Assembly (NCBI RefSeq): GCF_050320075.1
Contig: NZ_CP190018.1
DNA length: 64,000 nucleotides
From: Escherichia coli
GTDB lineage: Bacteria; Pseudomonadota; Gammaproteobacteria; Enterobacterales; Enterobacteriaceae
Reading direction: 5' to 3' (one strand)
A program made the translations under genes and the position numbers. The notes below the pieces were generated by a model, which saw only the letters and a program-made list of their open reading frames with translations, ran no database searches and was not told where the DNA came from. This document shows positions 28,467 to 60,057 of the stretch, piece after piece; the stretch's first letter is position 1; each line of letters opens with the position of its first letter.

Positions 28467-28481
28467 TGGTGGAGCTGGCGG
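28467..28481. repeat. attL-side direct repeat (ssrA 3' terminus)
   Basis: TGGTGGAGCTGGCGG, identical to 16764-16778. Confidence 0.75.
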
Positions 28482-28829
28482 GAGTTGAACCCGCGTCCGA
28501 AATTCCTACGTCCTCGGTACTACATGCTTAGTCAGTCTTTACATTCGCTTGCCAGCTGCGGACGGACACGCCACTAACAAACTAGCCTGATTAAGTTTTA
28601 ACGCTTCAACCCCAGGCAGGGCTTCCACGCGATCTCTTTTGGGTTTGACCTCTCTTGATCCCCGTCCTAAGAGCGGAGGCTAGGGAGAGAGGGCTCTAAG
28701 CAGGTTATTAAGCTGCTAAAGCGTAGTTTTCGTCGTTTGCGACTATTTTTTGCGGCTTTTTACGAGGCCAACCGCCCCTCGGCATGCACCTTGGGTTTCG
28801 CAAATCCCGTCGAATCCAGAATCAGCCCC
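28467..28829 (-). ncRNA. ssrA: tmRNA (SsrA), 363 nt
   Basis: Reverse complement reads GGGGCTGATTCTGGATTCGACGGGATTTGCGAAACCCAAGGTGCATGCC...GGTTCAACTCCCGCCAGCTCCACCA. Confidence 0.95.
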
Positions 28830-46676: not shown

Positions 46677-46699
46677 AGTGTTGCCTTTTTGTTATCAAT

Positions 46700-46727
46700 A
46701 AAAAAGGCCCCCCGATTTGGGAGGCCT
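46700..46727 (-). terminator. pheA attenuator terminator hairpin
   Basis: On the minus strand AGGCCTCCC aaatc GGGGGGCCT followed by T6, between pheL and pheA. Confidence 0.7.
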
Positions 46728-46774
46728 TATTGTTCGTCTTCGCATTCTGTTTCACACGACGAAACGCCTCCCAT

Positions 46775-46822
46775 TCAGGGGAAGGTAAAAAAGAATGCGA
46801 AGAAAAACGGTGTGTGTTTCAT
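46775..46822 (-). CDS. pheL: pheA leader peptide (Phe-rich, 15 aa)
   Basis: Reverse strand ATGAAACACACACCGTTTTTCTTCGCATTCTTTTTTACCTTCCCCTGA = MKHTPFFFAFFFTFP*. Confidence 0.85.
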   Translation of the reverse strand: MKHTPFFFAFFFTFP

Positions 46823-46878
46823 GTTTGTTTCCTTAAGTGACTTCAGTACAGTACCCGTACTGTTTTCACGCTGTCAAC

Positions 46879-58275: not shown

Positions 58276-58289
58276 CAAATTAAGCGAAA

Positions 58290-58314
58290 GGCCATCCGTC
58301 AGGATGGCCTTTTT
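58290..58314 (+). terminator. rRNA operon terminator
   Basis: GGCCATCC gtca GGATGGCC followed by T5. Confidence 0.65.
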
Positions 58315-58879
58315 GCGTTGGTGAAAAAAATGCCGGATGCGACGCTGGCTGAACTGCACCCCAAATGTTGGACATAATCTGACATCTGAAGGTGCAGTTT
58401 ATGAAACATTCATTTGAAGTAAAACTTGCCGCTGTAAATCATTACCTGGCTGGTCATGCAGGCATCATTTCTACGGCAAAACTCTTTCAACTTTCTCACA
58501 CCAGCCTCTCACACTGGATTAATCTTTTTCTTCTTCACGGTCCTCGGGCACTGGATTGCAGACACAGGCGTAGCTATTCTCCTGAAGATAAACTTTGCGT
58601 GGTTCTTTATGCTCTCGGGCATTCTGAGTCTCTACCCCGGGTAGCTGCCCGGTTTAACATTCCCAGCCACAACACGGTTAAAAACTGGATAAAAGGCTAC
58701 CGCAAATCTGGTAATGAGGCCTTTATCAGGCGCAGGAAGGAGAAAAGCATGACCCGTTCTGATGATACCCATGAAAACGAGGCAAACATGACGCCGGAAG
58801 AGATGAAGAATGAGCTACGTTATCTTCGCGCAGAAAATGCATATCTGAAAGCCATGCAGGAGCATCTCCTGGAAAAAAA

Positions 58880-59782
<903 letters not shown>

Positions 59783-60057
59783 GGCGCGTCTTATCCAGCT
59801 TACGCAGGCACGATAGGGGGCAGCTTATTCCTCCACATACGCCAGCGAATACGGCTTCCCCAACTTGCCCACCTCCATACGTGTCCTCCTTACCAGAAAT
59901 TTATCCTTAAGCTCCTCAATAACCATTTTCCTGCTAACTAAATTCGTGGTTAAGGTTGCATGATGATATGCAACAAATGTATAACATTTTCTTTACCAAA
60001 AGAAATAAACAAAAGCGACCGACAAAAGCATCGGATTACGGCAGGAGACATAATGGC

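What the first reader, a model, noticed from the sequence alone, without database searches (positions are those of the whole stretch)
58874..58880. Programmed -1 frameshift heptamer A_AAA_AAG in the IS transposase
orfA is in frame 0 and orfB in frame -1; they overlap from 58814 to 58922. The slippery heptamer A_AAA_AAG lies in that overlap, so the OrfAB transposase would be produced by -1 slippage here.
Basis: partly seen in the sequence, partly recalled or inferred. Interest (0 to 1): 0.25.

Follow-up and report, generated by a model that had tools for sequence, protein, structure and literature searches.

The report
Known IS1397 transposase frameshift site
The A_AAA_AAG heptamer is real and is the already catalogued programmed -1 frameshift site of the E. 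coli insertion sequence IS1397, so the finding is correct but ordinary.

Summary
AAAAAAG lies at 58874-58880, in phase (A_AAA_AAG) with orfA (58401-58922). It sits inside the 58814-58922 overlap with the -1 frame orfB (to 59749).

The element is an intact 1432-bp IS1397 (IS3 family, IS150 group) at 58350-59781. It has a 4-bp TGGC target duplication and sits in the centre of a REP sequence between the rrn 5S gene and kgtP.

RefSeq annotates this same CDS as [quoted passage not shown]. Sharma et al. 2014 (NAR) list IS1397 as a case where -1 frameshifting "can be safely inferred". Their listing gives an upstream SD-like sequence and a 38-nt hairpin with a 3-nt spacer, and I recover both. I found no published experiment.

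58 of 60 distinct relatives (49-57% OrfB identity) carry an in-phase A_AAA_AAG or A_AAA_AAA.

Two small additions:
- IS1397's site lies 9 codons downstream of the family-conserved YLKK position used by IS150. It sits in a short in-frame tandem duplication and has a different hairpin.
- RefSeq's join re-reads C58881. This gives Pro161, where tandem slippage predicts Ala161.

Verdict: supported, already known, low interest.

The parts
58350..59781 (+). Complete IS1397 copy (1432 bp; IS3 family, IS150 group), with ends TG...CA
   Evidence: It is 100% identical to RefSeq copies annotated as IS1397. The imperfect terminal inverted repeats match at 15 of the first 16 positions. An empty site is found as one contiguous piece in other E. 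coli.
58346..58349 (.). Left copy of the 4-bp target-site duplication TGGC. The right copy is at 59782-59785.
   Evidence: Read directly from the sequence. Removing the IS plus one TGGC gives a 300-nt query that matches other E. coli in one piece at 98.7% identity.
59782..59785 (.). Right copy of the target-site duplication TGGC
58332..58349 (.). Left half of the REP/palindromic unit split by the IS (GCCGGATGCGACGCTGGC). The right half is at 59782-59799 (TGGCGCGTCTTATCCAGC).
   Evidence: The inverted repeat I1 extends beyond the IS ends into the flanks. IS1397's REP targeting is reported in PMC1525189.
58401..58922 (+). orfA (173 aa, frame 0): two HTH regions followed by a heptad-rich C-terminus
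   Evidence: Pfam HTH_28 and HTH_Tnp_1. The start is the same as in the RefSeq CDS.
58814..59749 (+). orfB reading frame (-1 relative to orfA). It carries HTH_21 plus the rve integrase core (the DDE-type catalytic domain of IS3-family transposases) and has no start codon of its own before GTG 59027.
58874..58880 (+). Slippery heptamer A_AAA_AAG, in phase with orfA
   Evidence: The site is identical in all five other IS1397 copies sampled.
58858..58862 (+). SD-like AGGAG. [quoted passage not shown]
   Evidence: This lies within the 6-17 nt window used by Sharma et al. 2014, whose cluster A_AAA_AAG_5 has SD = 1.00.
58884..58921 (+). Predicted stimulatory hairpin of 38 nt with a 3-nt spacer: CAGG-AG-CUGGAGA / UC-A-UCCGG-AG-CCUG
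   Evidence: MFE -13.9 kcal/mol, z = -2.45, and 1 of 200 shuffles folds as well. The size, spacer and first stem match Table S8 of Sharma et al. 2014. The hairpin is kept in variant copies, including a U.G to U-A change.
58895..58901 (+). Second A-run, G_AAA_AAA, followed by CGA. It is a non-canonical candidate secondary slip site and lies in the hairpin loop.
   Evidence: It is a paralogue of the main site through the tandem duplication. One variant copy reads G_AAA_AAG here (L004).
58857..58904 (+). In-frame tandem duplication: CAGGAGCATCTCCTGGAAAAAAAGCGC / CAGGAGCTGGAGAAAAAACGA (QEHLLEKKR / QELEKKR)
   Evidence: 18 of 21 aligned bases are identical, with one 6-nt indel.
58847..58853 (+). 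The position homologous to the family-conserved slip site (YL-KK motif). Here it reads GAAAGCC, which is not slippery.
   Evidence: Protein alignment with 17 relatives. DNA windows of 59 relatives. IS150 itself.

Best explanation
This is the programmed -1 ribosomal frameshift signal of an intact IS1397.

Proposed mechanism:
1. Ribosomes translating orfA mostly terminate at 58920-58922. This yields the 173-aa OrfA (HTH DNA-binding protein, presumed regulator).
2. In a minority of ribosomes, the codons AAA-AAG (58875-58880) occupy the P and A sites. The two Lys-tRNAs then re-pair one base back, on AAA-AAA (58874-58879).
3. Decoding continues with GCG (58880-58882) in the orfB frame.
4. The result is the 449-aa OrfAB transposase (...LLEKK-APGAGEKTKVIRSLR...), which joins the OrfA HTH region to the integrase-core (rve) catalytic domain.
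5. Slippage is probably stimulated by the SD-like AGGAG 12 nt upstream pairing with 16S rRNA, and by the 38-nt hairpin that starts 3 nt downstream.

Shown here: the motif, its phase, the frames, the domains, conservation across relatives, the predicted stimulators, and agreement with RefSeq and the literature.

Inferred: that slippage actually occurs here. Its efficiency is unknown.
For: - Motif, phase and overlap.
- Domain split between the two frames, and a full-length NCBIfam IS3 transposase match for the fusion.
- RefSeq 'programmed frameshift' CDS on an identical copy. The exact fusion protein is present in NCBI on 47 contigs.
- Sharma et al. 2014, Tables S4 and S8: IS1397 is cluster A_AAA_AAG_5, marked [true] ('safely inferred'), SD 1.00, hairpin 1.00, 38 nt, spacer 3, first stem 4 bp. 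I reproduce these values independently.
- A_AAA_AAG is among the most efficient heptamers measured in E. coli.
- 60 distinct frameshift windows from relatives at 49-57% OrfB identity, across Bacillota, Bacteroidota and Pseudomonadota, all show the orfA/-1 orfB overlap. The in-phase heptamer is AAAAAAG in 48 and AAAAAAA in 10.
- Chance expectation is 0.007 to 0.013.
- Full-length copies (at least 80% of the query) occur in 1707 of 5426 complete E. coli genomes. The site sequence is identical in six sampled copies.
Against: - No experimental demonstration for IS1397 was found. Sharma et al. say 'safely inferred'.
- The hairpin spacer (3 nt) is shorter than the usual 5-9 nt, and the first stem is only 4 bp.
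- One variant copy (L004) breaks a pair in that outer stem.
- IS1397 copies are too similar to one another to test covariation.
- The A7 run also permits transcriptional slippage, which would give the same protein.
Confidence: 0.85

Rival explanations
1. OrfAB is produced mainly by transcriptional slippage. RNA polymerase adds one extra A on the A7 run (58873-58879). Standard translation of the A8 mRNA then reads through into orfB and gives the same ...EKKAPGAG... protein.
For: - The run is seven As.
- The IS1447 study reports an IS3-family element that uses transcriptional slippage and needs at least seven As (PMC6211511).
- The product would be indistinguishable at the protein level.
Against: - Relatives and IS150 mostly have only six As (T/C-AAAAAA-G) yet keep the exact in-phase X_XXZ_ZZN arrangement.
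- The terminal G (the shift-prone AAG codon), the SD-like sequence at stimulatory spacing and the downstream hairpin are all features of ribosomal signals.
- The IS1447 paper itself notes that earlier work set the usual minimum at about nine.
Confidence: 0.07
2. The effective slip site, or a substantial second one, is the paralogous A-run G_AAA_AAA followed by CGA at 58895-58904. It would give an OrfAB isoform ...EKKRQELEKKTKVIRSLR... of the same length.
For: - It lies inside the overlap.
- The A-site Lys-tRNA could re-pair perfectly.
- It is followed by CGA (from my own knowledge, a rare Arg codon in E. coli).
- It arose by tandem duplication of the main site.
- One variant copy has G_AAA_AAG here.
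- Some relatives carry two in-phase heptamers in their overlap (L042, L018).
Against: - It is not a canonical X_XXZ_ZZN motif, because the first base is G.
- The SD-like sequences are too close (0 to 6 nt).
- No hairpin begins within 4-10 nt downstream. The next predicted structure starts about 20 nt later, and the run itself sits in the loop of the 58884-58921 hairpin.
- RefSeq and Sharma et al. both place the shift at the first site.
Confidence: 0.05
3. There is no recoding. The split frames reflect a decayed IS copy or a homopolymer sequencing error, and the true gene is a contiguous orfAB.
For: Homopolymer runs are error-prone. Some copies in databases are annotated as 'frameshifted' pseudogenes (L006).
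Against: - The same A7G sequence and two-frame layout occur in independent complete genomes.
- The same layout occurs in every one of about 60 distant relatives and in IS150.
- Both frames are intact with full domains, and the IRs and target duplication are intact.
Confidence: 0.03

Closest known systems
IS1397 (E. coli; IS3 family, IS150 group), as annotated in RefSeq and listed as cluster A_AAA_AAG_5 in Sharma et al. 2014 (PMC4066793)
   Same: It is the same element. There is 100% nucleotide identity to RefSeq-annotated copies over 58330-59800. The CDS ends are the same and carry a 'programmed frameshift' note. The heptamer, SD-like sequence and 38-nt/3-nt-spacer hairpin are the same. It is inserted in a REP, as reported for IS1397.
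   Different: Nothing substantive. RefSeq's conceptual protein has Pro161 because the join re-reads C58881. Tandem slippage on the heptamer predicts Ala161.
IS150 frameshift window. From my own knowledge, this is the experimentally characterised member of the group (Vögele et al. 1991). The sequence was examined here as L088.
   Same: The -1 orfA/orfB layout is the same. The A_AAA_AAG is identical and in phase. A hairpin lies downstream (Table S8).
   Different: IS150 and 58 relatives slip inside the conserved (A/M)YL-KK motif. They have a 10-11 bp stem (GCCUUAGYUC/GARCUAAGGC) starting 6-7 nt downstream, and this stem covaries. IS1397 has lost that site (GAAAGCC at 58847-53). It slips 9 codons later, 6 codons closer to the OrfB (E/S)LR motif. 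It has an unrelated bipartite 38-nt hairpin and an SD-like element that IS150 lacks.
IS911 and the dnaX -1 frameshift signals
   Same: Both have A_AAA_AAG with an upstream SD-like stimulator and a downstream structure. IS911 is scored Y/Y in Table S4, like IS1397. My memory of dnaX is an SD about 10 nt upstream plus a hairpin; I did not check that here.
   Different: The downstream structures differ (IS911: 57 nt, spacer 6). The genes are unrelated in the case of dnaX. The IS911 and dnaX signals have been measured experimentally, and IS1397's has not.

Membership tests
IS3 family insertion sequence | Two consecutive ORFs, with orfB in the -1 frame and overlapping the end of orfA | tested here: met
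   The overlap is 58814-58922, with orfB in the -1 frame.
IS3 family insertion sequence | OrfA has an HTH. OrfB has the integrase-core (rve, DDE-type) catalytic domain. The fusion matches the family transposase model. | tested here: met
   Pfam HTH_28/HTH_Tnp_1 in OrfA, and HTH_21 plus rve, rve_2 and rve_3 in OrfB. NCBIfam NF033516 scores 384 bits against a cutoff of 160, covering profile positions 1-369 of 369. The individual DDE residues were not checked.
IS3 family insertion sequence | Imperfect terminal inverted repeats ending 5'-TG...CA-3', a short (3-4 bp) target duplication, and a length of about 1.2-1.5 kb | tested here: met
   The ends are TGAACTG...CAGTTCA, the duplication is TGGC (4 bp), and the length is 1432 bp. 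The empty site was confirmed.
IS1397 (the specific element) | Near-identity to the named element | tested here: met
   There is 100% identity to copies that RefSeq names 'IS3-like element IS1397 family transposase'. A direct comparison with the ISfinder or GenBank reference was not possible with these tools.
IS1397 (the specific element) | Insertion into the centre of a REP/palindromic unit | tested here: met
   The flanks GCCGGATGCGACGCTGGC and TGGCGCGTCTTATCCAGC form a palindrome interrupted by the IS. The targeting behaviour is reported in PMC1525189.
Programmed -1 ribosomal frameshift signal (criteria of Sharma et al. 2014) | An X_XXZ_ZZN heptamer in the 0-frame phase within the overlap | tested here: met
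   A_AAA_AAG at 58874-58880, in phase.
Programmed -1 ribosomal frameshift signal (criteria of Sharma et al. 2014) | [quoted passage not shown] | tested here: met
   GGAG at a spacing of 12 nt and AGGA at 13 nt. The criteria are quoted.
Programmed -1 ribosomal frameshift signal (criteria of Sharma et al. 2014) | A downstream hairpin of 17-140 nt, starting 4-10 nt after the motif, opening with a G-C/C-G pair followed by at least 3 further pairs | tested here: met
   The hairpin is 58884-58921 (38 nt). Its first base is the 4th nt after the motif, and it opens with C-G, A-U, G-C, G-C. This is borderline on spacing. The same values appear in their Table S8.
Programmed -1 ribosomal frameshift signal (criteria of Sharma et al. 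2014) | Demonstrated production of a trans-frame protein at the site | not testable with these tools
   A reporter assay or peptide sequencing is needed. The literature found says 'safely inferred' only.
IS150-type frameshift window (family consensus) | The slip site lies in the conserved YL-KK motif, with the GCCUUAGYUC/GARCUAAGGC stem 6-7 nt downstream | tested here: not met
   IS1397 reads CTG AAA GCC at that position and lacks the stem. Its own site is 27 nt further 3'.

The most novel reading that the evidence does not exclude
IS1397 may show slip-site turnover inside an orfA/orfB overlap. An in-frame tandem duplication (QEHLLEKKR/QELEKKR) would have created a new A_AAA_AAG with its own SD and hairpin 9 codons downstream of the ancestral YLKK site, which then decayed. 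The duplicated second A-run may still act as a minor alternative slip site. That would give two OrfAB isoforms differing in a 6-residue linker (APGAGE versus RQELEK). The displacement itself is well supported. The duplication origin and any second-site activity are conjecture, and the probability given here refers to those.
Probability: 0.15. Interest if true: 0.3.

Novelty: already known. Interest (0 to 1): 0.1.

Why it matters
The frameshift sets the OrfA to OrfAB ratio and so sets how often IS1397 transposes. IS1397 is of interest because it targets REP sequences. The signal is already annotated in RefSeq and tabulated in the recoding literature, so confirming it adds no new biology.

Two by-products have modest practical value:
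- RefSeq's conceptual IS1397 transposase (hundreds of entries) carries Pro at residue 161 as an artefact of where the join is drawn. The mechanistically expected residue is Ala.
- IS1397 shows that a programmed frameshift site and its stimulators can move within an overlap while the flanking protein motifs stay put. This is a caution for homology-based placement of frameshift joins.

Tried and rejected
- Original IS1397 and ISKpn1 papers: I tried to read them (PubMed ids and PMC94167, PMC95333, PMC169884) to learn whether frameshifting was tested. None is held.
- Text search for 'IS1397' plus 'frameshift': it returned only an irrelevant genome report.
- Rfam scan of the IS at a permissive threshold: no frameshift-element family, only chance-level hits.
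- Exact look-up of the mechanistically predicted fusion (Ala161) and of the second-site fusion: neither is in the protein collection. The Pro161 version is.
- Blind fetch of a K-12 region hoping to find IS150: the record has a different origin, so it missed. IS150 was then found by BLAST with a remembered sequence.
- Folding the 110 nt downstream as one piece: not distinguishable from shuffles (z = -0.94). Only the proximal 45 nt stands out.
- Hairpin CUCCUGG/CCAGGAG (58866-72/58883-89), which puts the heptamer in its loop: I considered it as a regulator. It competes with the two other pairings and would be unwound by the ribosome that decodes the site. One variant breaks it. I did not pursue it.
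- Covariation within IS1397 copies: there is too little divergence to be informative.

Full report
**1. The observation**

Positions 58874-58880 read AAAAAAG. The upstream ORF runs from ATG 58401 to TGA 58920-58922; the mechanical ORF list starts it at GTG 58392. Its codons begin at coordinates divisible by three. The local reading is therefore CTG GAA AAA AAG CGC, and the heptamer is in phase as A_AAA_AAG.

The -1 frame is open from 58814, after TGA 58811-58813, to the stop at 59747-59749. It has no ATG/GTG/TTG before GTG 59027. The stated overlap of 58814-58922 is therefore exact. This is the only in-phase X_XXZ_ZZN motif in the overlap.

From the window-wide frequency (26 copies on both strands), 0.007 in-phase copies are expected among the 34 in-phase positions. 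Mononucleotide shuffles of the A-rich overlap give one in 1.3% of trials. The A run is actually seven long (58873-58879).

**2. What the element is**

- OrfA carries HTH_28 and HTH_Tnp_1. The orfB frame carries HTH_21 and the rve integrase core.
- The conceptual fusion matches NCBIfam NF033516 'IS3 family transposase' over the whole profile (384 bits, cutoff 160).
- Megablast against complete E. coli genomes finds full-length copies in 1707 of 5426 genomes. Three are 100% identical, and they are annotated 'IS3-like element IS1397 family transposase'.
Its ends map to 58401 and 59749. The neighbours are 23S and 5S rRNA upstream and kgtP downstream.
- The element spans 58350-59781 (1432 bp). Its ends are TGAACTG...CAGTTCA, and 15 of the first 16 positions of the terminal repeats match. 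It is flanked by a TGGC duplication.
- Deleting the IS plus one TGGC gives a 300-nt sequence that matches other E. coli genomes in a single piece at 98.7%.
- The flanks form a REP palindrome split at its centre. This is the reported target of IS1397 (PMC1525189).

**3. Is this heptamer the frameshift site?**

*Database and literature.* The fusion protein made by joining at 58881 is present verbatim in NCBI under the IS1397 name, on 47 contigs.

Sharma et al. 2014 (PMC4066793) list IS1397 as cluster A_AAA_AAG_5. In Table S4 it is marked [true], with the footnote that -1 PRF 'can be safely inferred'. Table S8 gives an SD-like sequence in 100% of members and a hairpin in 100%, with hairpin size 38 nt, spacer 3 nt and first stem 4 bp.

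*My own analysis.* I recover the same features independently:
[quoted passage not shown] That is inside their 6-17 nt window.
- The 45 nt after the heptamer fold into CAGG-AG-CUGGAGA/UC-A-UCCGG-AG-CCUG at 58884-58921. The energy is -13.9 kcal/mol, z = -2.45, and 1 of 200 shuffles folds as well.
- The same paper shows A_AAA_AAG to be among the most efficient heptamers in E. coli.

*Relatives.* A scan of one genome per species returned 80 loci encoding OrfB relatives at 49-57% identity. They come from Bacillota, Bacteroidota and Pseudomonadota, including Klebsiella, Enterobacter, Kosakonia and Shimwellia. All intact ones have the orfA/-1 orfB overlap. Among 60 distinct windows (IS1397 included), the in-phase heptamer is AAAAAAG in 48, AAAAAAA in 10, AAAAAAT in 1 and AAAAAAC in 1.

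The step not shown by any data I could reach is slippage itself. The original IS1397 papers are not held.

**4. Comparison with characterised windows**

In the relatives the heptamer sits in a conserved ...ENAYL-KK-LNAL... motif. It is followed after 6-7 nt by a stem, GCCUUAGUUCA...UGAACUAAGGC, enclosing a ~45-nt loop. On the alignment of 58 windows, 4 of the 8 predicted pairs show double compensatory changes; one pair reads GC 30, AU 15, GU 13.

From my own knowledge, IS150 is the experimentally characterised member of the group (Vögele et al. 1991). It has exactly this arrangement: ATG TAT CTA AAA AAG CTG AAA GCC TTA GCT C...GAGCTAAGGC, with no SD. This agrees with Table S8 (48 nt, spacer 6, stem 10).

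IS1397 differs:
- Its LRYLRAENAYLK aligns residue for residue with the relatives' ...AENAYLKK. At the homologous place, however, it reads CTG AAA GCC (58845-58853), which is not slippery.
- It continues in frame 0 for nine more codons (AMQEHLLEKK) before the heptamer. The heptamer is in turn six codons closer to the conserved (E/S)LR of OrfB.
- The family stem is absent and is replaced by the unrelated 38-nt hairpin.
- The new site lies in an in-frame tandem duplication. The units are 58857-58883 (CAGGAGCATCTCCTGGAAAAAAAGCGC) and 58884-58904 (CAGGAGCTGGAGAAAAAACGA). Of 21 aligned bases, 18 are identical, with one 6-nt indel. The encoded repeats are QEHLLEKKR and QELEKKR.

So IS1397 works like IS150, with the same heptamer, direction and product architecture. 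Its frameshift cassette, however, is displaced and rebuilt. Whether this arose by site turnover within the overlap or by indels on either side cannot be decided from these data.

**5. Rival explanations**

- *Transcriptional slippage on the A7 run.* It would give the same protein. An IS3-family element (IS1447) is reported to use it and to need at least 7 As (PMC6211511). The in-phase heptamer ending in G, the SD spacing, the hairpin and the A6 runs of most relatives all favour the ribosomal route.
- *The duplicated run G_AAA_AAA-CGA (58895-58904) as a second site.* It is non-canonical and lacks well-spaced stimulators. It also sits in the loop of the hairpin.
- *A sequencing artefact or decayed copy.* This is excluded by identical sequence in independent genomes and by the same two-frame layout in all relatives.

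**6. An annotation detail**

Of 120 RefSeq IS1397 proteins, 108 read ...LLEKKPPGAGEK.... Yet the DNA at the site is AAAAAAGCGCCAGG in every copy examined. A Pro at 161 arises only if the join re-reads C58881 (C+CG). The look-up of that construct confirmed it. Tandem slippage on the heptamer predicts GCG, which is Ala161; that sequence is not in the collection.

**7. Verdict**

The feature is already known, being annotated in RefSeq and tabulated in the recoding literature, although it appears never to have been measured for this IS. Interest is low. The displaced site is a minor curiosity.

Noticed in passing
window 58880-58882 (join at 58881): RefSeq/PGAP draws the frameshift join by re-reading C58881. 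This puts an artificial CCG (Pro) at residue 161 in 108 of 120 IS1397 proteins. Tandem slippage on A_AAA_AAG predicts GCG (Ala).
   Followed up: yes
window 59717-59782; locus L089 1201-1266 (K-12 MG1655, between yhhI and yhhJ): About half of complete E. coli genomes, K-12 included, have no full IS1397. They do carry a 66-bp fragment that is 97% identical to its right end, lying just after the ISEc1-family transposase gene yhhI.
   Followed up: partly
window 58287-58349: The IS lies about 40 nt downstream of the rrn operon terminator hairpin (AAAGGCCATCC/GGATGGCCTTT followed by a T run), in the same orientation as the rRNA operon. Read-through from a very strong promoter could reach orfA. I did not test this.
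   Followed up: no
window 58857-58889: There are three mutually exclusive pairings around the slip site. CAGGAG/CUCCUG (58857-58871) would sequester the SD-like sequence. CUCCUGG/CCAGGAG (58866-72/58883-89; -12.4 kcal/mol, z = -2.4) would put the heptamer in a loop. Both compete with the downstream hairpin.
   Followed up: partly
L042 1483 and 1507; L018 1531 and 1561: Some relatives carry two in-phase slippery heptamers in their orfA/orfB overlap. Bacillus cytotoxicus has two A_AAA_AAG 24 nt apart. Klebsiella pneumoniae has A_AAA_AAG plus A_AAA_AAT 30 nt downstream.
   Followed up: no
L006 (E. coli SSGw1, laboratory evolution strain): This IS1397 copy has a small deletion shortly after the frameshift region (...GCAGGGCAGAAGCAC... 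in place of ...GCAGGGCTGGCCAGAAGCAC...). RefSeq annotates it as a 'frameshifted' pseudogene.
   Followed up: no
window 59704-59732: A 13-nt inverted repeat with one mismatch (ACTCAGCCCGGTA gaa TACCGGACTGAGT) lies inside the 3' end of orfB, just before the right inverted repeat.
   Followed up: no
window 20875-21160 (-) and 28467-28829 (-): C4 antisense RNA, its a1/b1 target and isrK lie about 7 kb from the tmRNA gene ssrA. This suggests a prophage-like island at the ssrA integration site. A pheL-type leader is at 46698-46823 (-).
   Followed up: no
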